Notes under the pieces: generated by a model
What the model was told of the DNA's origin: nothing
The model's input: the letters and a program-made list of their open reading frames with translations, nothing else
Database searches by the model: none
Made by a program: the position numbers and the translations under genes
Source of the DNA: Leptogorgia sarmentosa
Taxonomy: Eukaryota
DNA length: 64,000 nucleotides
Assembly: GCA_964658305.1 (NCBI GenBank)
Contig: OZ210885.1
Coordinates: 18,166,001-18,230,000 of the forward strand
Reading direction: 5' to 3'
In this document: piece by piece, positions 1 through 26,729 of the stretch
Position numbering within the stretch: the first letter of the stretch is position 1
Layout of the letters: each line of letters starts with the position of its first letter

Positions 1-542
1 ATAATAATAATAATCTTTATTTCATCGATAAAATACATATCGTATGTTACATGGTAAAAAGTTTCCACCTCTATTTACAACTGTTTTGATTAACTATTTT
101 CTAAAATCTAAATTCCCAACTCGTGTTCAAAAATTAACCGATTCTAAAAACAGTTCTTATACCTAGTAGTGTTTATCTTTGGCTTCGGGATATGTTCAGT
201 TCTGAGATTATGTCCAGTACTTCTTATCTTCGGCAAGAACTCATATAATGGATGGTTCTCTAAAATCCTAACCTTGTTAAAAATCCTTTTATCTTGTTGG
301 TTTAACAATAATTTAATGTCAATTGGCTTAGAGATATAGCCACGCTTTTTGCAGCGATCTAAAAACTGCTGAACACTAGAAAGTTCTGGATTTGAGGCTC
401 CATACACTGACAATCCATATGTGATGTTAGGCATAACCAAAGCTTGAAATAAATGGTCTATTTCATTCTGGTTGTAACCTTCCTTTCGTAAAGTCCTTAA
501 CACAAATAGAGATTTGTTGGCTTTGCATAGTTTATTTTTAAT
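1..542 (-). mobile_element. 3' end of a CR1/L2-group LINE (RT C-terminus, 3' UTR, (TTA)n tail)
   Basis: ORF 144..503 (LRTLRKEGY...LFQALVMPNITYGLSVYG...NTTRYKNCF) is a typical post-RT region. ATAATAATAATAAT at 1-14 is the tail. The frame joins 11684 (..RFNIHI|KNKLCKANKSLF..) once 543-11680 and one AAT copy are removed. Confidence 0.88.
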
Positions 543-584
543 GGGCTATTCCATTTAATATCCGTACCCCCCCTGTCGAGGATA

Positions 585-1149
585 GGTGGAATTCTTTGGG
601 GCTTATGTAAAAACTACATGGAAATCTTCAGGGGTGAGCATATGATTTAGCATGGAATTCTGCAGGGTGCATGTAAATTTAGCGTGGAATTCTTCAGGGG
701 TGCGTGTAAATTTAGCATGGAATTCTGCAGGGGGTGCATGTAAATTTAGCATGGAATTCTTCAGGGGGTGTGTGTAAATTTAGCATGGAATTCTTCAGGG
801 GTGTGTGTAAATTTAGCATGGAATTCTTCAGGGGGTGTGTGTAAATTTAGCGTGGAATTCTTCAGGGGTGCGTGTAAATTTAGCATGGAATTCTGCAGGG
901 GGTGCATGTAAATTTAGCATGGAATTCTTCAGGGGGTGTGTGTAAATTTAGCATGGAATTCTTCAGGGGTGTGTGTAAATTTAGCATGGAATTCTTCAGG
1001 GGGTGTGTGTAAATTTAGCATGGAATTCTTCAGGGGTGCGTGTAAATTTAGCATGGAATTCTTCAGGGGGTGCATGTAAATTTAGCATGGAATTCTGCAA
1101 GGGGTGCATGTAAATTTAGCATGGAATTCTTCAGGGGTGTGTGTAAATT
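585..1149. repeat. Left subterminal tandem array, ~16-17 x 33-35 bp (TAGCATGGAATTCTTCAGGGGTGTGTGTAAATT)
   Basis: Near-identical units read directly, immediately inside the left TIR. Confidence 0.95.
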
Positions 1150-1704
1150 AATAATTAATTAAAGGTAATTACATGTTACATGGGTGCCAGTCATGTATTA
1201 TTCTCATTTTATGGACAACTGTGTAAGTTAGTGTTCTCTTTCCAAAAGCCAACAAGTGCAAAGAGGGCCACCCAGAAGTTGTTGGGGTCTCTCAGAGCAA
1301 GATGAGCAAAATTTCCTTTGATACCCCTTCCTCTTAAAAATAACAAAAAATAACAGGGTAGTTTTACATCCTACTTTTATAATATTATTACGGCCCCAAA
1401 GCCTGAGGGCGGCCCTGACCATATAGCCAAGGGTAGAACAAATATTGAGTGTAATTTCCTATTTGAAAGGTTGCCACTTCAGCTACCTTGTTTTATCTAA
1501 GAGGAATCATATAATCTAGTGTATCTAGTGTATACACCACAGTGACACCAGTGAAAAGGCATTATCGTTCACAAAAAATTCTAACTGTGACATGTCAAGT
1601 TTGTGTGTTCAATCACTGATTAATGGAATATGAGATTGAATGAGGTTGAAATAATTTTAAAAAGGATAAACGTTAAAATGGTTAAAAAGATTCTAATTGA
1701 AAAG

Positions 1705-2732
1705 TTAATCCTGTTCATATTCATCTTTGACAGAAGCAACTATAGTGTCCATTTGCTCGTCTTCCAAAGGAGGACAATCTGTTGAAATATCGAAGGTTTC
1801 CATCTCCCTGTCACTGCTCTTTTTGGTATTGATTTCCTCATTAGAAGATATCTCCGATCCAGTTCTTTTGTACTGTTCAATTGATCTGATAAGATCGCAC
1901 TGTGCTGACTTAAGATCAGAAAAAACCGCGTCAAATTGATTTTCTAATTCATCTCTTCTTTCTCTCCGTCACTGCGACTTATTTCCTCACAGAATTTCTT
2001 ATAGCCCTTGTCTGTAAGAAACTGTGCCTCATTGAGTTTGTCTGAATTTTTTAGCACAGACGTTAAATTAACTTGGCTCGCTTTTTCCATTCCCATCGTT
2101 AAATTGGAAATTTCGAGTTCCTTAACGTAACTGTTCAAAAGCTCAGTCTTTTTTAGTGTCCAGTGGACATCTATAACGCCACATATTTCTTGAAATCCCC
2201 AAGTGTCAAAAAATGCATCATTAGAAATTTCTTTTACTTTCTTGTTTGCGAAAATCATTCGTTCTTTCTCGAATAGTCTTAACGCATTGTTTATTTCATC
2301 GTCGCCGTATATTATGACATATTTTTGTTTTTCCGAATCTTTTTTCCCAATGGCACTATGACCTTCCTGACACCACGTGACTGAATCCCTTTCTCGCTTT
2401 TTCGATGCCGCTGAAGCCTCTGTGAGTGTTTCGCTCGTGGGTTTAGTGCTGTCACTGCTACTTCTAGCTACTTCGGTTATTTTTACATCACACAAGTACG
2501 TTTGTGGCTGGTCCAACTTCGTTACACACTGTGCCACACGATACTTTTTTTCCTGTTTTTGATTTATTGATGTTCCACACACTACAAAGCGATAATCAAC
2601 ATGAGAAGACTTTGCAAAAAAAATGGTTTTTTGCCTTATTTCTGCTAAAGTTGTTTCCAGATCTACATCTGTAATTGCCCCAACAGTTTCGTTTGTGTCA
2701 CTGTTCCGTAAATAAAGTTGTACCGATGACAT
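1705..2732 (-). CDS. Cargo protein A: ubiquitin-like N-terminus + HMG-box-like + coiled coil (frameshift near 1955)
   Basis: ORF 1944..2732. An alternate frame continues DELENQFDAVFSDLKSAQCDLIRSIEQ...EQD* to 1705. Aligns by eye to 3607..4548 (TVG..../TL.E.R, IY...EI..A...EK.R.IF, I...W, SD.K..Q). Confidence 0.7.
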
Positions 2733-3094
2733 TGTTGGTCTTGGATAATGTCGATGAAATCAGTAGTCGCTGTCGTTTATACGAAATCACTGTGAAACCA
2801 CAGGCATCCCATGCACGTTACGTCATTTTAGTATAATATAATATACTAAGTCTAAGGCTGGCAACTCTTTTACGATAAAAATAGACATGCAATTACACTT
2901 TCGCTTCAAACAAATAAAATAACACGACTTTCTGAAAAAAAACTAGATACAAATGAACTTGGATACCTATTCTAAATTTCTACATAGTTTTTGCGTAAAA
3001 ACAACGTTCCGAAATACTTAAATTTGTTCAATAAAAAGTGTTTTTTATCGAAATTTTTTTTGTAGATTTGCGGGATGCAAAATGCCCTACAAAC

Positions 3095-3394
3095 CATAGG
3101 CAGCCCAGTGATCTGGGGTTTTATTATGTTAACTAAAGTTGAATAGGGCTATTTCATCATCCTTAGTTGTTTATATGCGTGCGCCGACAATACGGTCACT
3201 CGCGTATGTAATTAATAGTTATAATAATTGACAATTTTATAACTATTGTAATTTTAGTCAATTATTATAACTATTAATTACATACGCGAGTGACCGTATT
3301 GTCGGCGCACACATATAAACAACTAAGGATGATGAAATAGCCCTATTCAACCTTAGTTAACATAATAAAACCCCAGATCACTGGGCTGCCTATG
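3095..3394. mobile_element. P-element-like palindromic MITE
   Basis: CATAGGCAGCCCAG...CTGGGCTGCCTATG with ~137-bp near-perfect inverted arms. 7-bp TSD TACAAAC (3088-3094 / 3395-3401). CAT...ATG termini. Confidence 0.85.
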
Positions 3395-3606
3395 TACAAA
3401 CGTCATCTTCGGAAACCGCTTCGGCTGAGCTCTTATTGGCTGTTGACAACTCGGAAACCTAAATCTTAGCCAATGTTGAACCGATGTTGATATTTGATTG
3501 TGCTATTTATACTGTTTACCTACGATGTTCCAAATATGGATTAGCAACGTTTTCACTTAATCGGGAATCGGGAAGGTGACGAAACGTTAACGTGTAGTCG
3601 TGTACA

Positions 3607-4548
3607 ATGAAAGCAATCAAAGTGTACTTGGATGGAAAAACGGTTGGTGTTTTACCAGCATTTGAGGAAGGAGTCACTTTGTCAGAACTCCGCAATGAAA
3701 TTTGGGAGGATTTTGGGCTAAATAATTTTCGTTATTTACACGAAAATGAGCCAATTAATTTAAGCACGGAAACACTTGTTAAAGTTGGGTCTGTCGCAAA
3801 ATGCGAGGGTAAAAACAGCAATTGTTTATCCATTGAGCTAACATCCAGTGGTGTGTTATGTCGAAGCAGCAACAACACCGCTTTTAGTTCGGCGGGCCAT
3901 GACGTGTCTCCTGTCTCGGATGCCAGTCTAGCTGTCGATCAAGCTGATGAAAGTCAAGTATTTACTGAAACACAAAGTGATTCATCAAGCAGTAAACCCA
4001 CGAGCATGTTTTTGCGAAGTCCCAGTTCTTGGGAAGTACGGGGTATCAAGATTTACACGAAAAAGAACGAAATAGAATCGGCAAAGGGAATAGAGAAACA
4101 AAGACGCATTTTCTGGAATGACATGGCAAAAAAACTGTGCAAAGAAACCAAAAAATCTAAACAGGTTATTGCACAAATTATCAACGAGTCGTGGAGAAGT
4201 GAGCAAACTAGCTTATTGATTACGAAAAGTAAAGATTTGCTAGATGCAGCTAAAGAAATAGAAAGAACTGACAGTAAAATGAAGCCCAACACTATAGCAA
4301 AAAATATCCAGAGAATCAAGGGCAGCCAGAAAGAATTGGAACGGATTAATGCAGAAATAAAGGAGGCTAGCGCTTTGGTGGGGCAAAGTCCACAGGGGAA
4401 TAGAATTTGCAAGAGAAAGCACGAGCTGGAGCTGGAAGAATTACAACGCGCCAAGAAGTATCACCTTTCTGATATCAAGAAAGGTCAAGACACAATGCGG
4501 AAAAATTTAAATTTAAAACTGTCTGAAGTTCAAAACCTTATGAAATAG
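3607..4548 (+). CDS. Cargo protein B (313 aa, intact): ubiquitin-like N-terminus + Ser-rich linker + HMG-box-like + coiled coil
   Basis: IKVYLDGKTVG...TLSELRNEI...FRYLHENEPIN fits a beta-grasp pattern. RRIFWNDMAKKL...IAQIINESW resembles HMG helices 1-2. Heptad-rich C-terminus. Confidence 0.72.
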   Translation: MKAIKVYLDGKTVGVLPAFEEGVTLSELRNEIWEDFGLNNFRYLHENEPINLSTETLVKVGSVAKCEGKNSNCLSIELTSSGVLCRSSNNTAFSSAGHDVSPVSDASLAVDQADESQVFTETQSDSSSSKPTSMFLRSPSSWEVRGIKIYTKKNEIESAKGIEKQRRIFWNDMAKKLCKETKKSKQVIAQIINESWRSEQTSLLITKSKDLLDAAKEIERTDSKMKPNTIAKNIQRIKGSQKELERINAEIKEASALVGQSPQGNRICKRKHELELEELQRAKKYHLSDIKKGQDTMRKNLNLKLSEVQNLMK

Positions 4549-5137
4549 TACATTTTCGCTATTCCATAACTTTTCTTGCTGTTACATACTTTATATTGTT
4601 CACGTAGTCGTTGAGATATTTATACGTATATGTTAGTGTTATAGCAGGCCAATTATTTCCTCAAATATATTCAGTATACTGTTATAAAGTAAAAAATATT
4701 TACAATGTCTTGCCCACTGACCTTGCCTGATGGGTATCTTTCCAAAATTGTCTTAGCGAACTTGACTTACTTCCATCATAAACAAATTGAGTTATTCAAA
4801 AAGGGAATGTATGATATTTTGGTAAGTCCCAAGTAGACTCGTCTACACTTAATTTTATGGGGCAAGTACACATGTAGCTATTTGCTGAAAATCTGGCGTG
4901 CCTATTTTTTAGCAAAGCTGCAAATGTATCTGGCATAAAATTGCCAGATGAAAATTTATGAGACATCATGTACTCGGGGCTTTTCGATGAAATATTCTGA
5001 ACATTGCAAGGTCGATGCCTGGTTGATTGTCATTATGAAATTTACAAGCAAATATGTAAACAAAATCTGATTGGCCAATTGCAAAAGAGCAACCAATCAA
5101 CTGGTAAGTTTATAAATATTTTATTATGAATTTCATA

Positions 5138-5265
5138 CAGGGTTGCCATCTTGGCTTTTTTTAAGCCAAATTTTGCGTTTTTGGCTTTTTTTGGAGGCGT
5201 TTGGCTGGGAAAAAAGGCCTTTGGCTTTTTTTAAGAATTTGGCTTTTTTTGGCTGTTTTTTGAAA
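5138..5265 (+). mobile_element. hAT-like MITE end fragment
   Basis: CAGGGTTGCCA terminus followed by repeated TTTGGCTTTTT motifs. Partner end not found. Confidence 0.4.
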
Positions 5266-5484
5266 ATGCGAGTATGAATTCAATTATTGCTATAATAGGA
5301 TGAAATAATTAATAAACAGCCTTGGAAATTGGAATGAGTATTGTATATTTTAAGGCACTACAAGTTAACTAGCTAGTTGGCTGAAAAGTGCTGACATTAA
5401 CTTGAAAGAGTACGAAATTTATATTGTTGATAATGACATTTAATATGTGTTGATTATCTTTTCTGTAAATGAGACAAATATATT

Positions 5485-6732
5485 TTGATTCAAATGCTAT
5501 TTAAAGATGCAGTAAAGTCCGTTCTGCGCATTCTTTCTGCTCATAACAAAGACTTACAAGGTTCGGTATTGCGGGAGTATCTTCCCAAAATATCTTCAAG
5601 ATATTTTAATTGCGTTTTCAAACCTGTTTTGAAGCAAATCGATTCGAAAAAATTACTGAACGTTCACAGTTTAGAGGAAATTCTACCCGAAAGTATGTGC
5701 ATAAATCTACGGGCTGAACTTTCGTCCAAGGAACTTTCGCATCAACCAAATATAAATAGTTTCGATTTGACAAAAAACCCTACGGGCACTGGCAAGTTTG
5801 TTGTAGATCTTCCTGTTTTTGGGATGATAGACAAAAATGGACTCCAAGATATGATAAAGCTACATAATCTTCGGAAGACAGTTAAAGAAGTGGAAGACGA
5901 AAGAAGTTGGGTAACAAAAGCGGAAAGGCAGCTCAGATCCAATAAGGGTTTAAAAGAATTATTACAACCTGTGAAGGAGTACGCCAACGCGCTTTGGTCA
6001 AGTACAGGGAAAGATAAAGCATTTGGAATAAACATCAAAGACACCATGCGATTAGCGTGTGACCGATGGTTCTCAGATGATCTTATTGAGTGTTTCTTTT
6101 CTATGCTTGATGCGTCGTCTGAAGAGCATATGTTTCTTGTTTTTGATCCTCTAATGACCAACCCGTCACATTTATTAAAGCGAGTTGAAGCGAGATTAAA
6201 TAACACAACTAAGTATTTACATTTTGCTTTGAATGTCAAGTGTACTGGTATTAACTTGGCCACAACAATAGGGAATGGAAATCATTGGGTATACGTCCTT
6301 GTGACTAATAATGGAGAAGACATTATATATGGTGACCCTAAAGGCTGGAAAATGCCAGATGCTTTACAATCCATCTTCGAACCTGTACTTAACATACTTA
6401 GAAAGAGACATGGATCGCAAACTAACCCCATTGTTAGGCAGAAAGTAATGCATCATCACACTTTTGGAACTGTGCATAATTGTGTAAAAGGTTGTAGTAA
6501 CTTGTTCCCAGTACAAACCTGCCAGGATTTTTGTGGGGGCATTGTAATTCTTGTTTGCGCATTAGCGATTTTATTACCGGATTTGTGGAATCACATGATA
6601 TTTGAAGAAAATTCTTTTAATGGCCGTGAGGTAACAACAGAATACAACACTTTTATAAAACTGTTGAGGAACCCGTCTTCTCATGCTTTGATATGGAGAT
6701 CACTAATGATATCTTGGTTGGTACAGAAGTAG
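5485..6732 (+). CDS. Ulp1/SENP-like (peptidase C48) cysteine protease
   Basis: RWFSDDLIECFF, GNHWVYVLV (His), IYGDPKGW (Asp), PVQTCQDFCGG (oxyanion Gln + Cys). True start uncertain. Probably once fused to the next ORF (frames overlap at 6710-6732). Confidence 0.75.
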   Translation: MIQMLFKDAVKSVLRILSAHNKDLQGSVLREYLPKISSRYFNCVFKPVLKQIDSKKLLNVHSLEEILPESMCINLRAELSSKELSHQPNINSFDLTKNPTGTGKFVVDLPVFGMIDKNGLQDMIKLHNLRKTVKEVEDERSWVTKAERQLRSNKGLKELLQPVKEYANALWSSTGKDKAFGINIKDTMRLACDRWFSDDLIECFFSMLDASSEEHMFLVFDPLMTNPSHLLKRVEARLNNTTKYLHFALNVKCTGINLATTIGNGNHWVYVLVTNNGEDIIYGDPKGWKMPDALQSIFEPVLNILRKRHGSQTNPIVRQKVMHHHTFGTVHNCVKGCSNLFPVQTCQDFCGGIVILVCALAILLPDLWNHMIFEENSFNGREVTTEYNTFIKLLRNPSSHALIWRSLMISWLVQK

Positions 6733-6733
6733 T

Positions 6734-9700
6734 TTGCCTTATTCACAGTTATCACATAAATCATACGTAAACAAAACAGAGAGCGAAAAGATGGAACACG
6801 ATGAGAAAAAAGAGATAAATGATGAACTTAATATGAATAAAAAGATCCCATTTTCAAAACTATCGCCTAGCTGGTATGCATTGCAGCTATCAAAAGAAAA
6901 GCTTTGCTATCCACGTTTGTCAAAAAAGTGGTTTGAGAAGCAAAGTTTCGACAAGCCACAGCATGATCCAAGTATTTCTCCCAACTGTAATGCTGATCAA
7001 CCAGACATTCCTTTAAATTCTGAGATACCTTGCTCGCACAAAGATGACAAGACGTTACGAAAAACTGTTGAAGAGAATACAAACAGCCAAATTCCATACA
7101 AAGGTATATCTAAACAATGGTACAAAAGAAGAGGCGCACTTTCACTTAAAAATAGAAGCAGAAGCAAGCAGGTAATAGCTGGAGGGAGTCTCCAAGAAAA
7201 TCTTAAGGCTATCATAGATACAAACCAAAACCTTGCTGCTGGAACAAAAAAACATGAGGTGAATAAAGCGATGATAAACGTTGGGACTTACATATTAGAA
7301 AACGGCCCTTTAATCGCCACTCAGGATCTCGGTAAGGTTTTACTCGGAATAAGACCCGAGAAGAGTGGAAAGAAACGAAAACCTCGCTCGTCTGAAATTC
7401 TAAGAAGAATACAAAACCACTTTAATGTGATAGAGGTTAAACTAAGAGGGAAGTCATACATAGTGGAGAACAGGAGTCAGAATATTTCCAAGATTGCTAC
7501 AACATTAGAAGAAATAATTGGACGTTGTTCAACAGAAAACATTAATACTCACCTTGAGACAAAAATTGGGACTCTTTTCAAATCGGCTGTAAGATTCGCC
7601 GATCGTGATTTGATTAAAGGTTTATTTGCTACTGCAACAAGCGTAAAATTCGTTGCAAAAATGCTTGACGTGAAAAACAGAAACTCCATTCAGTCTGCAA
7701 AAGACGAGCTTGCCTTTAAAATATCCAAATTTCTAGAAGTTGAAAAAACGTCGCAGATCGTGAGGAATGATATGACCAACGAACAACAAAGAAGGACAAC
7801 TAAAAGAATAATTGCGCAAAGGAAGACAAATAATTTCAAACTGAAATACGAAACAAGGGGACGAATGATGCTCGCTGACAAATTTCCTGAACTCAAAATT
7901 GTCTTGGAAGAAATATTTAACGCAGGGGTTACTGGGATGCATGGTGGTCTTGAAAGTCACCCAAGACTTACTACAGATGTACTATACAGGTCACGAGACA
8001 ACACATTATTTATGCATCAGGCCCGCGAAATCCTGCTTCAAGTATCACCGCCAGGGTTCGGTATATCATTAAAGTCGTGCTACAACTATACAGAGTCGTA
8101 TAAAGACAAAACATACTCGGCAAAACGCCATCATGTTGGTAAAGATGTTAATGCGAAAATATCCCTTAATCGTCCTCCTAGAATTGGTGTTTCTAAGCAC
8201 GTAGTCAACTTGCATTGGACAACCAAGAACGTAAACTTGCTGCTTGAAAATCTGGAGACGAGCCAGGATGATTGTGTGATCGATTCAAAGGATGCAAAAG
8301 CCATTGTTTGTGGAGATATCCAGCCAGTACAAAATCCAGGAAAGAGTTGGAAATCCATCACTTATGAAGATCACACATTTGAACAAAGTCGAGTGAATGC
8401 TGTTTATCCCATGACACATTTATTTATGGAACCGAAAGAAAGTATTGATGAAAAAACCAACACAGCTAGAGTTACCAGGACAGGACAGGCGGTTGTTCTC
8501 ATTAACATTGCCTTCTTTGAACCCGAAACTACATTTCGCGCAATGAACGAAATATTGTACTTGTTAAGCAGACCATCCTTGGACAAAATTTTTAGAAATC
8601 CAGTTACAGGTAACATTAAATCCGTCTTTTCATTTATTGTCGATAATGGTCATGGTGAAGACCCAGATAGCCCACTGACTCAAATGTGCTTGTCGAGGTT
8701 ATTGTACTTGCTCTCCCTTACCAAAATTAGCCAACGGTCTTTTGCTAAATATCACAGTAAAAGAAACTTTGTTGAAAGAGTGCATGCTGCTGAGAATTTG
8801 GCCTTGTCGCGACATGGCTCCTTTAACAGCAAAAAAATTCACAGCGACCCAGAAGTAGGCAGTAAAGAGCACGCCGAAAATATGGAAGAAATGGCACTTG
8901 ATGTGAAAGACTGCATTTCTGAAGCTCGGTTTGCCGGACGTTTTCTACAATGTTTCAGAGGGATCAACAACAATAACGGAGTTTTTGACGACGAAAATAA
9001 ATTAAAAGAATTTTTGAGTCTTTCAGAAGAACGGAAAGAAGAATGCACCTGGATATACAAAGCGGAAAGTATCAGTAATTCAATCTTCGAATCACTTGTC
9101 ATGGTCTGGAATGTGCCTGCAGATTTTGAAAGAAGATACATTAGCGATTATAAAGTTGTGATGAATAAAGAAGAGAACGTTAACTGTTCAGCATGGAAGG
9201 ATAAATATTCTACAACACTTTACAGTGGCATAGATGAGAACAATTTTGAGTTTCAACCTATACCAGATTATGTAAGATGGTTCGAAAGTAACGGAGAGCT
9301 TCATTATCTGTCATACGAGAAAACAGTGGCGCTATATGAAGAGATACAAATTGACATACCAGCGTTACTCCTGCCATCCACTGTCTTGGATTGGTTGTTT
9401 GTAAAGAACAGCACACCACCGGATGATGTACTTTTCGAAATCTCGATTCTTGCTTGGCTTCCAGTACAGGATGTGACAAAGTATTTCCAATTAAAACGTG
9501 ATAAAATGGAAAAAGACTTTAAGAAAGATCTCGCAAGGGAAACATGGCGAAATCACACATTGTACAAAAAGTCAACGGGAGAGTTACAACAGCAATGTAG
9601 AAAAGACAGTCTTTCACCTTCAGGACAAAAGTACGAGCTTGTGCAAAGATTGGCATTGGCAAGAGGGGAACAAGACAGAAGCAAATTTCAGCCTTCATAC

Positions 9701-10378
9701 TGTGGAAAATTATCATCCCTACCTAAATCTCTCAGTGAACTTAAGAAAATGCCAATTCCGACCATAAAGTACATTTTAAAGTCCAACGCAATTTCATATG
9801 CAGGTAATAAAGATGAGCTGGTACTACGACTATACCTTCTTATCCATGGACGTTCCTATTTAGCATTTTACGAGCAAGAGAAGCAACTAAAACGATGCAT
9901 CACAACTGTGAAGCGAATCATATCACTCGAAATTAAACAATCGATATTGTCGTGTAATAACATACACAGAATCCGAACTTGCACTACTTCCAACTCGATT
10001 GCAAAATCAAAAATTATGATCCCCAAGAACATACAGGCGATTACCGATTTACACAAACTGTTTTCGGCTCTCCTAAATTATGTTGACCATCTAGTTAACC
10101 GAGATTTGGACGACTCAAGTGCAGATGAAGACGTTATTGAAGATAATTCCGACGAGTACTGTGAATATTTTGAAGTTGGGAAGCAAGTTAAAGTCAAATG
10201 GACAAAGGATGAGATAGGGGATACAGGATGGAGAGCCGGTTGGTATAACGCAGAGGTGCAAAAAAGCAATATATCATCGGATGAAATTACCATTGTCTAT
10301 GTTTCAGAGCCCGAGTCCATATATAAAGTTGAAGTTACCCCACTGTTGGCTCATGGAAAGTTGAAGTTAAACAAATAA
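6734..10378 (+). CDS. Zator-like DDE transposase with two SAP domains and C-terminal Tudor/Agenet-like domain (1214 aa open)
   Basis: IDSKDAKAIV, YEDHTF, FIVDNGHGEDP and HSKRNFVERVHAAEN parallel the Zator motifs DDKA/DHDF/DGGPDE/S..N.VER. SAP-like ELQQQCRKDSLSPSGQKYELVQRL and IKYILKSNAISYAGNKDELVLRL. Tudor-like FEVGKQVKVKW...GWYNAEV. Confidence 0.82.
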   Translation: MPYSQLSHKSYVNKTESEKMEHDEKKEINDELNMNKKIPFSKLSPSWYALQLSKEKLCYPRLSKKWFEKQSFDKPQHDPSISPNCNADQPDIPLNSEIPCSHKDDKTLRKTVEENTNSQIPYKGISKQWYKRRGALSLKNRSRSKQVIAGGSLQENLKAIIDTNQNLAAGTKKHEVNKAMINVGTYILENGPLIATQDLGKVLLGIRPEKSGKKRKPRSSEILRRIQNHFNVIEVKLRGKSYIVENRSQNISKIATTLEEIIGRCSTENINTHLETKIGTLFKSAVRFADRDLIKGLFATATSVKFVAKMLDVKNRNSIQSAKDELAFKISKFLEVEKTSQIVRNDMTNEQQRRTTKRIIAQRKTNNFKLKYETRGRMMLADKFPELKIVLEEIFNAGVTGMHGGLESHPRLTTDVLYRSRDNTLFMHQAREILLQVSPPGFGISLKSCYNYTESYKDKTYSAKRHHVGKDVNAKISLNRPPRIGVSKHVVNLHWTTKNVNLLLENLETSQDDCVIDSKDAKAIVCGDIQPVQNPGKSWKSITYEDHTFEQSRVNAVYPMTHLFMEPKESIDEKTNTARVTRTGQAVVLINIAFFEPETTFRAMNEILYLLSRPSLDKIFRNPVTGNIKSVFSFIVDNGHGEDPDSPLTQMCLSRLLYLLSLTKISQRSFAKYHSKRNFVERVHAAENLALSRHGSFNSKKIHSDPEVGSKEHAENMEEMALDVKDCISEARFAGRFLQCFRGINNNNGVFDDENKLKEFLSLSEERKEECTWIYKAESISNSIFESLVMVWNVPADFERRYISDYKVVMNKEENVNCSAWKDKYSTTLYSGIDENNFEFQPIPDYVRWFESNGELHYLSYEKTVALYEEIQIDIPALLLPSTVLDWLFVKNSTPPDDVLFEISILAWLPVQDVTKYFQLKRDKMEKDFKKDLARETWRNHTLYKKSTGELQQQCRKDSLSPSGQKYELVQRLALARGEQDRSKFQPSYCGKLSSLPKSLSELKKMPIPTIKYILKSNAISYAGNKDELVLRLYLLIHGRSYLAFYEQEKQLKRCITTVKRIISLEIKQSILSCNNIHRIRTCTTSNSIAKSKIMIPKNIQAITDLHKLFSALLNYVDHLVNRDLDDSSADEDVIEDNSDEYCEYFEVGKQVKVKWTKDEIGDTGWRAGWYNAEVQKSNISSDEITIVYVSEPESIYKVEVTPLLAHGKLKLNK

Positions 10379-10461
10379 TAAGGGAGCTACAGGAAAAGTA
10401 CATGTTCACCTGCCATATCAGGGACAATTTTATTTTACCTTAATAATGTATATTAGACTTA

Positions 10462-10807
10462 GACTACATTTACACGATGCCGGTATTATGTGAAAACGGT
10501 AGAAAAATTACGATAGTTTGCGAATGTGCCGTTTACCTGTTGCGTTTACACGGTGCCGGTAAAAATAATGACGGTTTGTCATGTGATATTCCTTGTCCAA
10601 TGACATTTAACCATTGTCGAACTCTTGCGGCGCGGGCGTTTACACGGTGCTTGTTACTGTTCCGTTTTCACACTTCGCCGATAAGGACGACGTTTTCGTT
10701 TTTTGCCGTTTTCATGGCATTTTCTGCCGGTATCGTATAAACGCAAGGCCAAAACGGCATAATTTCGTTCCGTTTTCAAATGAAAACGGCATCGTGTAAA
10801 CGTAGTC
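10462..10807. mobile_element. Harbinger/PIF-type MITE
   Basis: 21-bp TIR GACTACATTTACACGATGCCG / CGGCATCGTGTAAACGTAGTC (1 mismatch). TSD TTA on both sides. Confidence 0.85.
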
Positions 10808-11311
10808 TTAATAAGTGAAATTCTACATGTTGGATGCGTTCACATGTCTTGTGGGGTCCTGTGGACACGTTTTTCATCAATTTTCCTATAAAATTCTATA
10901 ATTGTCAAAAAAGGTGAAATTTCAGGTTGGTTTTTAGGAAAAATCACTTATGTTGTTAGAAAAGTCAAAAACATGTAACATTGTGATTAATCTTTTTAGA
11001 CATTTTTATATAAATATCTAGATGTTTATATAAAAATATCTAGAAGGTTTGACTGTTGTTTACCTATTTTATATCTACATATAACTTTTTATGAGGGCCA
11101 CAAGTTCATTAGTTGCTACAACTATTATGTGTCAGCCTCGTTAAATAAAGTTTAAATGAAAATGAAATGAAACCAGAGCAATATAAAAGGACATATTGTA
11201 TATATTACATATTGTATAATTATATTATGCTCACTAGTGTCAGAATGTTAATATATAAAATACAGGTTTTTTGTGAATATGAGGGAGCTTGATGAATTTA
11301 CTTACTTTCAA

Positions 11312-11620
11312 CGGGTGGAATTCCTCAGGGGTAGGGCATTTTGAGGGTGGAATTCCTCTGGGGTATGGCATTTTGAGGGTGGAATTCCTCAGGGGTAGGG
11401 CATTTTGAGGGTGGAATTCCTCAGGGGTAGGGCATTTTGAGGGTGGAATTCCTCTGGGGTATGGCATTTTGAGGGTGGAATTCCTCTGGGGTATGGCATT
11501 TTGAGGGTGGAATTCCTCAGGGGTAGGGCATTTTGAGGGTGGAATTCCTCAGGGGTAGGGCATTTTGAGGGTGGAATTCCTCAGGGGCAGGGCATTTTGA
11601 GCGTGGAATTCTTCAGGGTT
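11312..11620. repeat. Right subterminal tandem array, ~10 x 31-32 bp (GGGTGGAATTCCTCAGGGGTAGGGCATTTTGA)
   Basis: Read directly. Shares the TGGAATTCYTCAGGGG core with the left array. Confidence 0.95.
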
Positions 11621-11680
11621 ATATGTTTGAAAACAATGTATCCTCGACAGGGGGGGTACGGATATTAAATGGAATAGCCC

Positions 11681-13305
11681 AATATGGATGTTGAATCTGC
11701 AGTTGCTTCGTAATCCCATTCCTAAGACAGTCAGTTCATTACATTGTGGAATGTAGTCCTCAACATTTCCTTTCTTTCGAAATATAAGTTCATGACATTT
11801 CTCTGGATTGCATGCCATTTTATTATTTTCAGTCCAATTGAAGAATTGATGGACAACTTCACCCGAATTATCCTCCTTACCTCTGAATACTGGGACTGCG
11901 ATCGTGGAATCATCTGCATACTTCGCTAAAAATTCTTCTACAGTGAGATCGTTTATAAATATATTGAACAAATATGGACCGCTAACGCTTCCCTGTGTTG
12001 TTCCCCTATTAACAAACTTCCAATTACAAGCAATTCCATTCGAAAGGACACGTTGTTTCCTATCCTGAAGGAAATTTATATACCAATTTATAATGATCGG
12101 GTGGAGAGGCAACTTCTTAAGCTTTTCACATAATAGAGAATGGTTAACCCAGTCAAACGCTTTTGAGAAATCCATTGCAAAAAGTCTGACTGCCTTAATA
12201 TCCTTATTATCTAGATAGCCACATAAAGTATCCTGAATTGAGAGCAAAGCATCCACACAGCTACCACCTTCCCGATAGGCGAACTGATTACCACAGAGAT
12301 GACTCTCTATGATATCCTTGCAGAAACATTTGTAGACTGTTTTCTCAAAAGCTCTAGCAATTACTGGTGTAACATTAATACCACGATAATCTGAATCTTG
12401 CACCGGTGTGTCAGTCTTGGGTAATGGATCAATATTCGCTTCCTTCCATGCCATTGGCCATGTCTGCTTGCGTAACGATAAATTCCAAAGATGAAGTACA
12501 ATTGGAGCTAACTCGTCAACATAATCCCACCATACCCAAAATGGGATCCTATCCGGGCCAGAAGCAGTTTTCTTGACAGTAGCGAGTGACTTAAGAACTT
12601 GAAATGTTGTGAGCTGTGGAACATCCATGCTATAAGTCATACTGACAGGTTCAGTTGTATTGTAGTTTGGATCTGAACACAGATTTCCAAAATAGTCATT
12701 AAGTCGGTTCAGAGTTTCGACATCAAGTGCTGACCGAGGTCTGTATTTTCTGTTAGAGAGTTTATCTACCCCATCCCACCATTTCCTGCAACCAGTATTT
12801 CCAACGCTTCTCCAGTTCCTTCTGTTTTTTGATATTAAATTACCAATCTTTCTATTTAATATTTTTTTGCTTTCACCATCAGTAAGCTTAGATTTCTTTT
12901 TGAGTAAGTGTTTCAGGAGTGGTGTCATCCACACAGGGTCTCTTATAGACACGTTCACAGATTTCAAAGGCATGCATTCATCCATCATCCGTAGTAAAGT
13001 ATTATTAAATTCAGTAACCGTGGTGTCGATATTGTCCTTAGATAACACATCACTCCAATCTTCCATTTGTATACGTCTGTAGAATTCTAGCTTTCTATGC
13101 TCTCTACGATCTCTCAATTCTCGCTTCATACGAACAGGTTTAAGCTTATTAACAGGAGGTAACACAACACCTTTATGATCAGTTTTTCCGGTGGCATCTA
13201 CAGCATAACACGAATGAAACAGGCTTGGGCAATTGGTTAGAACATTATCTAAGATATTACTACCTCTCGTTGGGTAATTAACTAAAGCGTCAAATCCCAA
13301 TTTTG
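11681..13305 (-). mobile_element. 5'-truncated CR1/L2-group LINE: end of APE endonuclease + reverse transcriptase
   Basis: PTRGSNILDNVLTN..DH (EN end), ASGPDRIP, QFAYREG, MDFSKAFD, GTTQGSVSGPYLFNIFINDL, KYADDST. Confidence 0.92.
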
Positions 13306-15126: not shown

Positions 15127-16414
15127 AGGGGAAGTCAGGGTTCACAACAATTTGCACTCAAATGAAAGATCATATATTGCCTACCTCACATGCAAAGTCT
15201 CTTGTCTTCAGATTAAATATAAGTCTAGAAATAAAGCGTTGAAATTGCTAAAATTTACATATTGCGCGCCGCCATAGTATACATCGCAGCGAAGCCGCGA
15301 TCATGCAGCGGTTTTACCTCGTGACGTCATTGCGCGGTTCGCGGTAGCGCCTAATATTCAAATTTCTAAACATCGAAGCGACATTTAGCGAATAAGCGAT
15401 CTTCACAAATCACAGCAGTATTTAGTGTTTTAAATACACATTGTTTTGTTAAAATGCCGTATTGCATGGTGCCTGGTTGCACAAATTGTTCAAAAAAGAC
15501 AAAAGGTAGTGATATATGGTATCATCGTTTACCGAATGATCAACATACACGCAGAATGTGGCTCAGACGTGTTCGCCGCGAAAATTTACCAAAACCAAAC
15601 TCATGCTACGTTTGTAGCGCGCATTTTACTCCTGACTGTTTTGAATTGTCTCTCAAAGAGATGTTTGGTATAAAGTGTAAGAAGGCTCTCAAGCCTGGAA
15701 GTGTTCCATCAATATTTCCATTTTCAAGTCACAAACCAGAACGTGTATTATCACACAAGAGGGCACAAATTAAAGAAAAGATTGCACAAGTCCAGGTAAT
15801 TGATGGGAATAATATATACATTGTGGGAAACACTACAAGAATTTACTACTACAGTAAACCCTCTATTATATGTTTCAGAATATATTATTATTCAAGGGGG
15901 AAGGGGGGGGGGAGGTGAGGGGTCATTGGACAAGTTTACAAAATAAATCAGACTCATTGCCATAAATGCTATAAACTATACTACAAGCAGTCAATATACA
16001 TGAATAATTACAAATAATAAATATTACCAATATTAGTTCATACTGGTTTTACATGATTTAAATACTTTTCATTCAAATCTTGCAAAAATTGGGTTTCTTT
16101 CCAGGAAGTAGAAAATATTTTGAACGACACAGTACATGAAGATGATGCAGGTGATATGCAATGCACTGAACAGGACCCAGCCAATTATGTTCCAAATTTT
16201 GATGCAGGAACACAATGTGAACCCAGAGTTTTGTTGGATGCAGAGACCCAGTCTGACAAAATATTAAAACGTAGTATTGGCATACAAACACTTGCACCAC
16301 GTAAAAAGAAAACTAGAAAATCCCAAAGGCTACATACATCATTGAGTCCAAATGTCAATTGTCCACTTGGTACACTGTCAACACCGATGGAAATAAAACA
16401 ACACAAGCCATCCG

Positions 16415-17697
16415 CAGGCGCGGATCCAGCTTTAAATCTGACCGTGGCAGGGTCGAAAATTCACATAACCAGGGGGGGAGTTCGGGACACCCCCCCCGGT
16501 AAATTGTCGAAATTTGAACACATTTCCCTGCGTTCAGAGCATCGAATTCTATCATATAATTCGCCATTAATTCCGCCATGTTTTAGAGAGAAATAACGAA
16601 TCGCACTCAATGAACTTAAATCGAGATCATATTACTATTTGACCAACTTCAAATAATTTACATATAAAATTTGCATACACAAATATTCCCTGGCCCTAAG
16701 GCAATTGCAAATTTAATATAAATCTATTAAAATTTCTTACTTAACACGGATATTAGGCCCAGATCTTTCAATTTGACTCTTGGGGAACTGCAGTTTGGAA
16801 AATTCGCACACTCGCAGCACGATGTCGCCTGTAGATTTTATACGGCGCAGCTTTCCTTCAGTGATAAATTTATATTTATCACACTGTTGCCTCAAGAGCG
16901 ATAACTCCCCTGAAATATCTTCGCCCTGGTTCAATTTTTGAAAGATTTCAACGAGCTTCTTCAGAACATCGACCTTTTCAAGAGCCTCCATTCTAACAGC
17001 ATTCGATTCAGCGAACTGATCAATATAGCTTGTTATGAAATTCTACCCGTCAAGTCCGACGAGTACCCGAACTCATCGTTCATCATTTGCATTGCGCAAT
17101 GAAAATACGCTCACCGTGGCGCACCGTGGCGCACCGTGGCGCACCGTGGCGCACCGTGGCGCACCGTGGCGCACCGTGGCGCACCGTGGCGCACATGACC
17201 ACATCTAGCCCTGTGATTGGTTTGCACCTCTGCACCGTGGCAGAATGTTACTATATTTAGTAACAATTGCGAAACTTTTTGCACGCTGACCGTGGCAAAA
17301 TTTGTGGCTGTGATCGCAGGCGGCAGCTTCAAATTTGCGAGTGTTTACCGAACATATTCGGCATACTTCGGTACGGTTTCGGCTGTTGTTATAGTTCAGT
17401 GTTAACTGAATGATTATGCTATTGAAGAAACATAATATTTCGGCGTTTTCATTGCGTTTGACGCGAAATACGACACCACATAAAATAATGTGAACAATCC
17501 GGGAAAATGTTATTCAAATTGGCTGTTTTAGAGTTTAGATGCAGATTTCCTTGATTTTGAACGATTTATTTCAAATTATTATTCATATATATATACTTTA
17601 ATCTAATTTGCGAAAAAGGTGAACCCCGGAAAATCTAAGGTGGGAAAAATCTGACCGTGGCTCGCGCACCGTTCGCCACGGTCTGGATCCGCGCCTG
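16415..17697. mobile_element. Non-autonomous hAT-like element with 5-bp TSD (hAT5-type)
   Basis: TIR CAGGCGCGGATCCAG / CTGGATCCGCGCCTG. TSD ATCCG (16410-16414 / 17698-17702). Removal restores KPSAARALYNNG in the Kolobok frame. Confidence 0.87.
17112..17194. repeat. (CACCGTGGCG) x ~8 minisatellite inside the hAT5-like element
   Basis: Direct reading. Confidence 0.95.
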
Positions 17698-19807
17698 ATC
17701 CGCTGCTCGTGCTCTTTACAATAATGGTCCTGATTCAGCCCTAACTGTGATGAAAGAAACAGACACAAATGCAAAATATAACTCTGAGCCTGAGGAAACT
17801 GATAGTTTAGCAGATAACACATCAGACAGTGAATTCACTTCAAATACTGACAGTGATGAGGATTATTTGTGTTCTGAATCAGAAAGTACAACTGATGAGT
17901 CTGATGAGGAGGAACTAAAAAATGAAAGCAAATTTGTTGTGTTCGAAAGCATGCTTGACCAACTTTTTATTAATTGCAAAACTTGTGGCTCTTTATGTGA
18001 GATTGAAAAGTCTGTCACTGGGTAGCATGGTATCAGTCAAAGCAACCTGCTGTAAAAACCATACCTTTCACTGGAGATCACAACCACAATTAAATAACAA
18101 GCCTGCTGGTAACATTTTAATTCCTGCAGCAATTGTCTTTTCAGGTGGATCATATGAACCGTTGAAACAATTCTCAAATGCACTTAACTTGAAATTTGTG
18201 AATAAGGATCAGTTTTATGATGTGCAAGACAAGATAATTTTCCCAGTCATCAATAATGCCTATAAAAAACAACAAAAGGATATCATTGAAACATTGAAAG
18301 ATGAGGAAACTGCAGTGAATTTATGTGGTGATGGTAGATCGGATAGCCCTGGTCATAATGCTAAATATGGCACATACTCACTAATGGATGAAGCTACTGG
18401 AAACATAGTCGATTTCTCTCTTGTTCAAGTCTCCGAGGTTACTTCATCCAATGCAATGGAGAATGAAGGGTGTCAAAGATCTCTGAACAAAGTCCTTTCC
18501 CAGGATGTAAACATAAGATCATTGGCAACAGATCGTCACACAACCATAACTGCAGAAATGCGGAAAAAGTTCCCTCTATTATTCATCAGTATGATGTGTG
18601 GCACCTGTCAAAGTGGGTTACCAAGAAGCTGAGCAAGAAAGCCAAGAAAAAAGGAAACAAGCCACTTTTTAAATGGATAAAATGTGTATCCAATCATTTG
18701 TGGTGGTGTTCACAGACTTGTGGTGGTAATGCTGAAGCCCTGAGGGAGAGGTGGGTGTCCATTTTGAACCATGTGGTGAACAAACATAAATGGAAGAACA
18801 ATAAACATTTCAAAAAGTGTGAACATGGCCCCATGTCTAAAAGAAAAGAAAGAAAAACAAAATGGTTAGATGTAACATCTTCAGCCTATGTTGCCCTAGA
18901 GGAAGTTGTTCTAAACAAAAAATTTCTAAAAGATATTGGAAAACTTACAGAATTCCATCATACTGGTGAGCTCGAAGTTTACCATTCTCTGCTGCTTAAG
19001 TACATTCCAAAGCGTCTGCAATTTTCGTACAAAGGCATGGTCGCTAGAACTCAATTGGCAGTGCTTGATCACAATACGAACACTGGAAGAGAGCAAGCAA
19101 AAATTACTAAGGGCGATAACAAAGGGCAGAAAAAATACAAGTTGGTTTTTCCAAAAGGACAGAAAAAATGGGTAGCAAAGCCGATCAAGACCGGAAAGTC
19201 TTTTTCATTTGTTGAAGACTTGATGGAAGCAGTTGTTTCCATCAAGAATGATACAGATGAAAAAGACACAAGTGATAGTGATGACGAAGATACCACCTGG
19301 GCACCTTGTATTCCAAACAATATCGCTCCCATACCAAGACCCAGTAGAGAGGAAGTAATTGCAGCCCACAGAACCCGGATGTTGAAAAAACAATAAATTT
19401 ATGTTACCCTACAAGAGTGCTACCCTCAAATATACTATTTCACCCGTCGACAAGGTTCAGTATGCGGCCTGCCGCCTGTGTACATGAGTAGTGGATAAAA
19501 ACATCAACAAGCAGCAAAAGTTCTACTCACTACCTAAACGATACAATAAGATTCAAACTTCAATATGTGGCCAGTGTAGGTAGTAGATAACAACATCAAC
19601 AAGCAACAAAAGTTCTACTTACTACCTAAACGATACAGCGAAGACTCAACGTTATAGCTATTTGAACCAGTGTCCAGTGATTACACTGTTAATATCAAGG
19701 ACAAGTTTAACAATTGTTGAATGACTGTAAATTTGTATTATAATTGAAAGTAGATTAATATGTCAAAAATAGCAAATATTGAAGCAATGTTTCAGAAGCA
19801 GAATCCC

Positions 19808-20562
19808 CTACTCATCTGCAAATTTAAACCCTTTAAAAACAAAGTCCTCTTCTAAACCTGGTGGTGGAAAATGAGCTCTAATACAGCTGACTACACAAGA
19901 GGGCAATGGGACCCTTATATCCTTGCCCAAGATATCCCAACACCACCTAACAAACGTCCTATATGCGACATGTCGATTTTTTTTGTGTTCAGGCCCTTCA
20001 AATGCCTTTGCACCATATTGCTGTCGGTAAGTACTCCAGGAAAGTCGCAATACCCAGTAACTTAAACATAAATGCGTGAACACAGGATTATCAGTTATGC
20101 ATTCTGGAATGTCTATGCCCTCAATCTCAGTGGATTCTTGGTTGATAGCAACACAAGCTGGGATCTCCTGGCAACAAACACCCTCTTCTTCCCTATCCAT
20201 TATCTGGCAATGGGTACAAAGACACCTACAGTACGAAGTCGAGATATTTCCTGTGATCATTGGTGATATGTCGATCAATTTATAATATATCCTAAACCCA
20301 CACTATCATTTTTTATACTATTGAATGTAAATGATAATTACCAGTTTGTGTCTTGAAGTCTTGTATTTTCAGACGAAGAAGACCCTGAAGCCATCTCTGA
20401 TCCTGAGTCATCTCCGCCGCCACTCGAGTCAGTTTCAATCGGCTCATATGCATATGGCTGGATGAAATTCACGCCTGCTCCCACGTTCACTTCTTCGCTA
20501 GAACCCGACCCATTCATTTGAGAACTATCACTTGAAGATCCGTTCGAGTAATCAACATCCAT
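19808..20562 (-). CDS. KolX protein (Cys-rich, P2X7-ballast-like), 2 exons
   Basis: Exon 1 from 20562 to a TG|gtaatt donor. Exon 2 starts at 20225, giving NWCLCTHCQIM..E..CCQE..CIT....F...RHVAYRTFVRW..LGKDIRVPLPSCVV..IR..FP. Confidence 0.82.
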
Positions 20563-22569: not shown

Positions 22570-24285
22570 CAGAATTATTTTGGAAAAATGTCAGAGTTAA
22601 CCTGGGAATTTCTTAAAAATAACGTTGGTATATCTGAAGTGAATGCAGAAATGGACACATGATGTAAAGCAATATTTAATACAATAGAAGATATAACGTC
22701 AGTTTATGATAACGACAAAGTTTTGGATGAGCGCATAAGGGTGTTAAAGCATGTTTTGTTACCAGCAGAAGACCAGTATGGTCGAAGTTTGCTTCATCTT
22801 GCAGCATCAGTTGGAAATACAAGGTTGGTTCGAAGCCTGGTTTGTTCTGGAGCACTAATTAACAACATGGACAGGATAGGACAAACGCTGTTGAGTCTGT
22901 CATTGTATAAAGGGCATACAAACGCAGCAAAATTCCTAGTGACGGTGTCTACAGCGGAGGACCTGTGTGATGCTGGGAAATTGGGTGTTAATGCTCTGGA
23001 CTTAATAAAGGACAAGGCCCCAGAACTAGTAAGCTTGGGAAAAAACAAAATAGACGAATATCAAACATTATTACATAACCTAAAAACAGCTTTCTCTGTA
23101 GAAGACATAACTGAAGACATGGAATGCGAAGACACCAGTTCCTATGCACAAAACAAGGAAAATTTCGGACATGCTGTAAATATCAACGTCGGTGATGAGA
23201 AGAACACTAACTATTCAGGGTTGTGAAAACCGTTGTCCGATCGATATTCTGTCCACGTTCCTGGTGGAGGGGACTTCCACAATTGCGGGTATATTAATGA
23301 GTCTATTGCACGAATTGCGGGTCAAGGAGGTTTTTGGAATGTTACAGAACACATACTCAAAAGGCCAACAATAAATCCATTGTCTTTCAAGAAGAAATTC
23401 AAGGACAATAACTTTAACAATAACGAGGAAGCTCTAATTGACTATGATGACAGTCTGTCAATTGCGATGATAAGAAAATGTGAAGAATAAGAATATTTTC
23501 CGACAGAGAATGAACTTGATGAGTGTATGAGAATGACAGGTTCTCATAACAATATTCTGCTTGAAAGGCTCGAAAAATGGATAGGTGATCAATCTTCTGA
23601 TGCAGTTTTTTCCTACCATGCTACCTTTATTAAAGACTTGATGCCGATAATGAGGTGGTGCAAAGAAAGTACGAGATATGGAAATGGTTTATCCATGGAA
23701 GATGTGTGGATGCTTTTGCCACAGCTTTATGCACAAGTTGGTAAAACGAATTACAGAGACGAAGCATTCACACAGTATGTATATGCTGTTGCACATCTCC
23801 CCCTGGCATATAGGAAAATGTACCAGCAGAACCGTTCAGTGAATGTTGATGGGAGGCAGGGGCGACAACTCGCAGGTGATGAGTGGGTGGAGAGCTACCT
23901 CGTACGTCCAGTAAAGCAATACGCCAGTGCACAAAGTTCTTTTGCTATGGTGCAACTAATGTCTTGTAGTGTAAGTCTATTGGAGATGAACAAAAGCATG
24001 TATAAGGATCATGGAGCATTTGACATCCACAACACAAAAAAACATAAAAAGCCAAGTTCAATGTATGACTGCCTTAAAGTTGCACAATTTGCAACCAACG
24101 AAAAGTGGTTTGAGTCCTGTGGTAGAGGCAAAGTTCCAAAGTATGCATGGGGAGGCACATCATGCAAGTCAGAAGATTCAGTCGCCTCCCAGTACATTGA
24201 CCCTCTTTCAAAAGGAGATAAGAAAGCAAAAGAAGAATTTATCCCTTTTTTGCACAGAAAGTACTCAAATCACATGGATAAATAA
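22570..24285 (+). pseudogene. Academ-like transposase C-terminal part containing ankyrin repeats
   Basis: Ankyrin: GRSLLHLAASVGNTRLVRSLV..GA.IN..D..GQT. Then NVGDEKN, GGGDFHN, GKTNYRDE and AGDEWVESYLVRPVK (Academ/DUF6589-like catalytic motifs). Stops and frameshifts present. Confidence 0.65.
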
Positions 24286-24540
24286 ATGATGATGGTTTCA
24301 ATTGGTTTAATCATCATGAAATTATGAAATATAAAAATTGTTACTTCTGTATATAGTATCAATTCCTTAAATTCCTGGAATTTAGATCAACAGTGTTGGC
24401 TTTCTAGATCACACTGCCTGTGCAACACCACAGCGTTTTTGGATTACATTTGAAATGGTTCTTTTTAATAAATGGTAAACTTCACCCCTTGTGGTTCTTG
24501 ATCCACTGTTTTTTTGTGCAGCTTTCACTACACTGAAAAT

Positions 24541-26482: not shown

Positions 26483-26729
26483 TATATACACTATTTTGCA
26501 GTAGTGTTGTCAATTTCGGAACAAATATCTCGGCCCCTCTCCTACACAGGATATTTTGGTATGCATAACTTACATGCGCGAAGTGTCAACGAATTGTTCA
26601 ATTTTGGCAGGCATCTCCTCCTCTTCTTCTCCTTCCCCTCCCCCTCCCCCCTTCGTATTTTTGTTCACGCCACAGGTACCCAAGATAAAAGAGGTCAGAT
26701 CCAAGGAGATGCCTGCGGAGGAGGCTAAT

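What the first reader, a model, noticed from the sequence alone, without database searches (positions are those of the whole stretch)
1705..4548. Head-to-head pair of diverged paralogues (Ubl-HMG-like-coiled coil)
The two proteins share ordered blocks: TVG.../TL.E.R/YRF-FRY/.IN, then IY...EI..A...EK.R.IF, I...W, and SDLKSAQ vs SDIKKGQ. No DNA identity is obvious, so the duplication is ancient. Both starts face an ~870-bp spacer. Inference: co-expressed from a bidirectional promoter, possibly as a coiled-coil heterodimer that bends the long subterminal arrays, analogous to HMGB assisting RAG and Sleeping Beauty.
Basis: partly seen in the sequence, partly recalled or inferred. Interest (0 to 1): 0.7.

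Follow-up and report, generated by a model that had tools for sequence, protein, structure and literature searches.

The report
Twin accessory genes of cnidarian transposon
The two back-to-back genes are very distant copies of an uncharacterised gene that an 11-kb jumping element of marine invertebrates carries beside its transposase, usually once but here twice (one copy broken by a frameshift); they likely encode nuclear helper proteins for transposition.

Summary
The paralogy is real. BLASTP barely sees it (E 0.038); profile-profile gives 96.8%, E 3e-10, score 76.8 against 15.5±2.5 for 60 shuffles. Both genes lie in an intact-ended 11.1-kb DDE transposon (543-11680, 42-bp TIRs, AAT duplication) with a Ulp1-like protease and a Zator-like, SAP-bearing transposase. 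Corrections: A is frameshifted here, and SDLKSAQ lies in the shifted frame. About 640 of the 874 spacer bases are high-copy repeats. The pair is the exception: of 87 loci with a related transposase, 22 carry the gene, 21 once and 1 twice. A and B are not sisters (p-AU 3.5e-5). B is basic, A acidic. The N-terminus of B looks ubiquitin-like; HMG-box membership is unproven, and single-copy relatives lack the long arrays. 26 of 148 relatives carry a PIP-box-like motif (shuffled 0.7), absent from A and B. Best reading: a conserved transposon-encoded nuclear adaptor, here split into two charge-complementary forms. I found no description of it in the papers searched; Repbase and Dfam could not be checked.

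The parts
540..542 (.). left target-site duplication AAT (right copy 11681-11683)
   Evidence: the LINE RT frame is open across the empty site
543..584 (+). left terminal inverted repeat, 42 bp, begins GGG
617..1149 (+). left subterminal array, about 33-34-bp units with a GGAATTC core
1705..1959 (-). gene A, out-of-frame 3' part (end of helical hairpin with SDLKSAQ, acidic tail)
1944..2732 (-). gene A, 5' ORF of 262 aa: Ubl-like domain, linker, acidic helical core, truncated hairpin; 1-bp deletion near 1960
2733..3606 (.). 874-bp spacer; about 2852-3494 is high-copy interspersed repeat
3099..3390 (.). palindromic MITE flanked by TA, 138-bp arms 99% complementary; contigs lacking it exist
   Evidence: joints 3045/3064 to 3394/3395
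3607..4548 (+). gene B, intact, 313 aa: Ubl-like domain (1-80), linker, basic helical core (134-208), helical hairpin
5494..6732 (+). Ulp1/SENP-like cysteine protease, 412 aa, His264-Asp281-Cys motif present; fused to the transposase in 5 related loci
   Evidence: SENP1 E 0.047; no Pfam C48 hit
6791..10378 (+). DDE transposase, 1195 aa, conserved D501, D618, E662; SAP domain(s); Zator-like motifs (recalled)
11313..11618 (+). right subterminal array, 32-bp units with a GGAATTCC core, same orientation as the left array
11639..11680 (-). right terminal inverted repeat

Best explanation
A and B are two deeply diverged members of an uncharacterised gene family that rides in one group of DDE transposons, and they likely encode nuclear adaptor proteins that help the element's transposase reach and act on DNA. 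Shown: family membership, position inside TIR-bounded elements, usual single copy facing away from the protease-transposase unit, conserved core, non-sister status of A and B, opposite charge, and the frameshift in this copy of A. Inferred: the basic two-helix core binds DNA or chromatin without sequence specificity; the C-terminal hairpin oligomerises or binds the transposase; the N-terminal Ubl-like module is an optional interaction module (absent in many members); the basic patch plus PIP-box-like motif of many relatives would import the protein and tether it to PCNA, coupling transposition to replication or repair. In this lineage two forms are kept together: B would be the DNA-facing subunit and acidic A its partner or regulator. 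With A truncated, this copy would need A in trans or be impaired.
For: Homology. 208 clusters at 50% identity, no Pfam family of their own. Gene present in 22 of 87 transposase loci, 20 of 28 with at least 3 kb upstream; 6 TIR-bounded elements hold one copy. A and B homologues share 8 contig lengths, 8 of the 12 A-bearing contigs over 3.9 kb, at three divergence levels (indirect, no DNA seen). dN/dS 0.17 (L021/L039). PIP-like motif in 26 of 148, two of them C-terminal and probably chance, shuffled mean 0.7, max 5 (motif definition recalled). Net charge of core plus coil: A clade -1.6 and -3.4 (n=5), B clade +3.7 and +7.1 (n=9). Neighbouring cargo is ubiquitin-system: Ulp1-like, OTU (L001 above the Pfam cut-off, L005 just under), F-box-LRR (L002, L021).
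Against: No function is tested. A and B themselves lack the PIP-like motif (0 of 10 close members). 8 of 28 loci with room lack the gene. Models are weak (pLDDT 59.8 and 50.3); A's N-terminus did not fold as Ubl. The hairpin matches only generic helical bundles (Z about 10). dN/dS rests on one informative pair of relatives, not on A or B; two other pairs were saturated, and three near-identical pairs (0, 5 and 9 differences; omega not defined, 1.06 and 0.53) are uninformative. The clade members are related, so the charge contrast is one evolutionary event, not 14. Orientation in the other A+B copies is not known.
Confidence: 0.45

Rival explanations
1. The proteins are anti-silencing factors: with the Ulp1/OTU protease and F-box cargo they would counter SUMO- or ubiquitin-dependent host repression of the element, rather than take part in the transposition complex.
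For: Recurrent ubiquitin-system cargo; Ubl-like domain; fast divergence into 208 clusters. TE-encoded anti-silencing proteins such as VANC are recalled, not tested.
Against: PIP-like motif and basic core point to DNA and replication; the Ubl is dispensable in many members; no diglycine follows the Ubl in A or B (sequence).
Confidence: 0.25
2. One reading: an A-B coiled-coil heterodimer with HMG-like cores bends the long subterminal arrays, as HMGB1 does for Sleeping Beauty and RAG.
For: Invariant Asn and Trp with near-invariant Phe give a helix-turn-helix spacing like HMG helices 1-2 (HMG pattern recalled); one member hits HMG_box at E 0.0022; opposite charges of the hairpins fit a heterodimer; this element has long arrays. 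HMGB1 bending in Sleeping Beauty: PMC7827188, passages.
Against: Below the Pfam cut-off; the model of B continues helix 2 for 34 residues with no HMG-type third helix; A's core is acidic; relatives keep the gene without long arrays and without a second copy.
Confidence: 0.15
3. A is not a functional partner of B but a xenologue picked up from another element of the group (perhaps with the Ulp1 gene), acting as a redundant copy or an acidic dominant-negative regulator; the head-to-head layout is a by-product.
For: A+B monophyly rejected. Nearest transposase relatives share contig lengths with B-side members and L001 has OTU, whereas Ulp1 homologues sit with a distant transposase clade. The pair in L002 is of other subtypes. 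A is broken here.
Against: A and B co-occur across homologues only about 55% identical, and A keeps a conserved core, so A has been under selection beside B for a long time. Deep branches of both trees are poorly resolved (quick trees).
Confidence: 0.15

Closest known systems
Zator DNA transposons (IS630-Tc1-mariner group, related to TP36)
   Same: DDE transposase with motif order recalled for Zator; 3-bp TSD; short TIRs (Zator-1: 33-bp TIRs, TAA/TTA TSD, PMC12905397 passages).
   Different: TSD is AWT (22 of 24 ends), not TWA; elements of 7.8-13.9 kb with SAP domains, a Ulp1 or OTU protease and an accessory gene; no Zator sequence could be aligned here.
PIF/Harbinger and Pangu two-ORF elements (PHIS)
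   Same: Transposase plus a second ORF; Pangu has ANT TSDs, AG/GG ends, a second ORF without known domain, and occurs in cnidarians and a mollusc (PMC4482050 passages).
   Different: No DDE_Tnp_4 hit in 27 transposases; Pangu averages about 3.5 kb; no Myb/SANT domain here. Pangu ORF2 could not be compared.
Zisupton/KDZ transposons
   Same: F-box association (PMC12062965 passages); SAP and Ulp1 cargo (recalled).
   Different: No KDZ or CxC Pfam hit; 3-bp TSD; cargo partly in separate genes.
HMGB1 as host cofactor of Sleeping Beauty and RAG
   Same: Possible HMG-like helices beside a transposase with subterminal repeats.
   Different: Element-encoded, below HMG-box cut-off, third helix not evident, A acidic.
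SDE2 (Ubl + PIP box + SAP; recalled, not tested)
   Same: Same kit of modules spread over the accessory protein and the transposase.
   Different: No sequence relation shown; no diglycine cleavage site after the Ubl.

Membership tests
Paralogous pair (A, B) | significant similarity over more than one domain, in the same order | tested here: met
Paralogous pair (A, B) | sister genes from a lineage-specific duplication | tested here: not met
   p-AU 3.5e-5, 10 rows against 25, quick tree, group named after a first tree was seen
HMG box | Pfam PF00505 score above 25.4 bits | tested here: not met
   best 18.8 bits; 3 of 88 members at E<=1; A and B none
HMG box | three-helix L-shaped fold | tested here: inconclusive
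   low-confidence model shows two helices then a hairpin; the core was barely tested by fold searches
HMG box | binds and bends DNA | not testable with these tools
   only charge: B core +9, A core -3
Ubiquitin-like (beta-grasp) domain | beta-grasp fold | tested here: met
   B only, and weakly: strand-helix order; most top Foldseek rows are Ubl/SUMO/NEDD8/PB1, probability up to 0.99, target TM up to 0.63, but E>0.1. A follows by homology; its own model failed
Ubiquitin-like modifier | C-terminal diglycine for processing or conjugation | tested here: not met
   none after the domain
Zator | 3-bp target-site duplication | tested here: met
   window and 5 of 6 TIR-bounded relatives have matching 3-mers
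Zator | TWA target consensus | tested here: not met
   AAT 16, ATT 6, AAA 1, TTT 1 of 24 ends, many of them redundant copies
Zator | transposase clusters with Zator/TP36 | not testable with these tools
   no reference sequence available; no Pfam or NCBIfam transposase hit; motif likeness is recalled
Pangu (PHIS) | ANT target-site duplication | tested here: met
Pangu (PHIS) | PHIS-type transposase | tested here: inconclusive
   no DDE_Tnp_4 hit in 27 members; no Pangu sequence to align
Ulp1/SENP protease (neighbour gene) | His-Asp-Cys triad in clan CE order | tested here: met
   alignment; SENP1 tops the PDB list at E 0.047; no Pfam hit
PCNA-binding (PIP-box) protein | Qxx[LIMV]xx[FY][FY] motif in A or B | tested here: not met
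   0 of 10 close A/B members; 26 of 148 wider relatives

The most novel reading that the evidence does not exclude
An undescribed lineage of large, multi-gene Zator-related transposons with AWT target sites encodes its own PCNA-tethered targeting factor and ubiquitin/SUMO toolkit; in this branch the factor has split into an acid-base heterodimer (A acidic, B basic), a eukaryotic counterpart of clamp-guided targeting by Tn7 TnsE (comparison recalled).
Probability: 0.2. Interest if true: 0.75.

Novelty: new variant of a known kind. Interest (0 to 1): 0.5.

Why it matters
Few eukaryotic cut-and-paste elements encode accessory proteins. This family (208 clusters, no Pfam entry) marks a widespread group of invertebrate transposons that carry a second gene and ubiquitin/SUMO-system cargo. 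If the gene links a transposase to PCNA or counters SUMO-based silencing, it gives a direct test of how such elements time their jumps or evade the host, and it names many 'hypothetical proteins' in cnidarian genomes as transposon cargo.

Tried and rejected
Complex prediction of the A and B C-terminal modules: no answer (score 0.00 twice, alignments not used); no evidence either way. Sequencing runs: no RNA holder listed. A close-up of reads over the frameshift was not obtained, so the position of the one gap seen in run X4 over 1892-2418 stays unknown. No whole genome is held, so copy number and dN/dS among copies of this element are open. ESM Atlas: no usable hit. PDB sequence searches with family profiles gave only coiled-coil or chance rows; VIA searches were filled by the hairpin. 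No A/B relatives in metagenome or viral contigs; no transposase relative in viral contigs or plasmids. Earlier findings: none. Intron reading of A's break rejected: P0039 is colinear. The 'Vertnin' label on one transposase relative is read as an OTU-like module, not tested. Bao 2009 and Yuan and Wessler 2011 were not held.

Full report
Observation. Gene B is an intact 313-aa ORF at 3607-4548 (+); gene A starts at 2732 (-), 874 bp away. A's ORF ends at 1944 after 262 aa, and the last shared block (SDLKSAQ) lies in another frame. A near-identical database protein, P0039 (339 aa), is colinear through this point, so this copy has a 1-bp deletion near 1960. Contigs of two runs of one sample match 1120-2945 with no difference (the sample may be the window's source). 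BLASTP finds only the first 33 residues (E 0.038). Alignments of 10 B-type and 8 A-type proteins match at 96.8%, E 3e-10, 258 columns; score 76.8 against 13.4 reversed and 15.5±2.5 for 60 block shuffles; N-domain and core match separately, the coil alone does not. DNA similarity is limited to 18 bp.

Setting. The genes lie in an element at 543-11680 with 42-bp TIRs and an AAT duplication, inserted in a LINE reverse-transcriptase gene whose frame is open across the empty site. It also encodes a Ulp1/SENP-like protease (triad motif; SENP1 E 0.047) and a 1195-aa protein with SAP domains and conserved D501, D618, E662. That protein has no transposase hit in Pfam or NCBIfam; its motif order resembles Zator as I recall it. 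Named relatives come from Paramuricea, Exaiptasia, Actinia, Clytia, Mytilus and Ruditapes, so the host is inferred to be a cnidarian. The spacer holds a 292-bp palindromic MITE, and its middle is covered at about 28 to 240 times the element's depth, with pieces starting near 2852 and joints ending near 3494. Only about 230 bp may be native.

The family. A profile of B finds 208 proteins among 50%-identity representatives; many score equally with the A profile. None of 74 scanned has a Pfam family covering the core; one gene model carries CIDE-N in place of the Ubl. I fetched 87 loci by transposase similarity (80 of 86 found, 7). 22 carry the family gene: 20 once on the strand opposite the transposase, L021 once on the same strand with an F-box gene opposite, and L002 twice, head to head. 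These are roughly 11 independent element families, since many loci are near-copies. Of 28 loci with at least 3 kb upstream, 20 have the gene and 8 do not. Six TIR-bounded elements have one copy. Their ends resemble the window's and are flanked by AAT or ATT at 22 of 24 ends. So the usual layout is one accessory gene facing away from a protease-transposase unit; two copies are the exception.

History of the pair. A-type and B-type homologues share 8 contig lengths, including a 3,997-bp one, at about 75% and 55% identity to the window's proteins, so the pair has persisted; orientation there is unseen. In a tree of 83 cores, A and B fall in separate branches, and holding them together costs 42.6 log units (p-AU 3.5e-5, 35 rows). 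Either a very old duplication was followed by repeated loss, or one copy was captured from another element. Selection: dN/dS 0.17 for the family gene and 0.15 for the transposase between L021 and L039; the other five pairs were saturated or too close. Between A or B and their homologues under 90% identity, the core keeps 60-89% identity and the linker 9-67%.

Anatomy. B's model (pLDDT 59.8) shows a beta-grasp-type N-terminus, a disordered linker, helices 153-180 and 185-218, and a hairpin 227-312. Foldseek returns mostly ubiquitin-fold chains for the N-terminus, all at E>0.1. A's model (pLDDT 50.3) did not reproduce this. The core has invariant Asn and Trp with a spacing like HMG helices 1-2 (recalled), but only 3 of 88 members touch HMG_box, under its cut-off. 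B's core and hairpin are basic, A's acidic, across both clades. 26 of 148 representatives carry Qxx[LIMV]xx[FY][FY], 24 of them in the linker or N-terminus, mostly after a basic patch (shuffled mean 0.7); A and B do not. Complete single-copy relatives lack the long GGAATTC arrays (5 examined).

Mechanism. Most likely (0.45) a transposon-encoded nuclear adaptor: DNA or chromatin contact through the basic core, oligomerisation or transposase binding through the hairpin, PCNA tethering in part of the family, and in this lineage a split into basic B and acidic A. All functional steps are inferred. Rivals: anti-silencing with the protease and F-box cargo (0.25), HMGB-like bending of the arrays (0.15), captured or regulatory extra copy (0.15).

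Literature. I saw passages only, of PMC7386202, PMC8533490, PMC5751038, 10.1101/2021.09.26.461848 (Zator as an ITm-related superfamily), PMC12905397 (Zator-1 TIRs and TAA/TTA TSDs), PMC4482050 (Pangu), PMC7827188 (HMGB1) and PMC12062965 (Zisupton F-box). Searches (listings only) showed no description of this element group or accessory gene. The library lacks most subscription papers, Repbase and Dfam; no supplements were read. The element group may already be catalogued there.

Verdict. Real, ancient homology; a new variant of a known kind (multi-gene DDE transposon with an uncharacterised accessory family). The specific HMGB-like heterodimer model is possible but not favoured. Interest 0.5.

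Noticed in passing
window 10462-10807: MITE-like inverted repeat flanked by TTA inside the element's right arm, high copy; Harbinger-like by recalled ends.
   Followed up: partly
window 617-1149 and 11313-11618: Left and right subterminal arrays share a GGAATTC...CAGGGG core in direct, not inverted, orientation; the core is palindromic.
   Followed up: partly
window 4055-4070: B has a local change (YTKKNEI) where all nine homologues aligned are one residue shorter, in the conserved core.
   Followed up: no
window 5138-5551: High-copy repeats between B and the protease, overlapping the protease's first codons; its true start may be further down.
   Followed up: no
L002 5256-6062 and L021 48-809: F-box-LRR genes carried beside the accessory gene and transposase.
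   Followed up: partly
L007, L008, L013, L017, L021, L039 versus L001, L005: The protease slot before the transposase holds either a Ulp1-like or an OTU-like enzyme, fused or separate: an exchange of two unrelated isopeptidase folds.
   Followed up: partly
L081-L087: Contigs of prokaryote-labelled genome bins carry these animal-type transposons, four with TIRs and TSDs; they look like host DNA in the bins.
   Followed up: no
L083/L084: Two near-identical copies in opposite orientation on one contig, family genes 100% identical: recent activity in that host.
   Followed up: partly
P0191, P0136: Family members with a CIDE-N domain (Pfam E 2.7e-13) or a SAM-like stretch (by eye) in place of the Ubl; may be gene-model fusions.
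   Followed up: no
window 15370-20302: THAP, transposase fragments and a P2RX7_C ORF on the opposite strand: Kolobok-like element by recalled layout.
   Followed up: no
window 22663-26509: Ankyrin, DUF6589 and RecQ helicase ORFs, probably another helicase-bearing transposon.
   Followed up: no
window 37797-39427; 34524-35963; 60704-62745: DUF659 (hAT-like) transposase pieces; further reverse-transcriptase and endonuclease ORFs.
   Followed up: no
window 40186-43889: Minus-strand ORFs with a weak SAP hit, unclassified.
   Followed up: no
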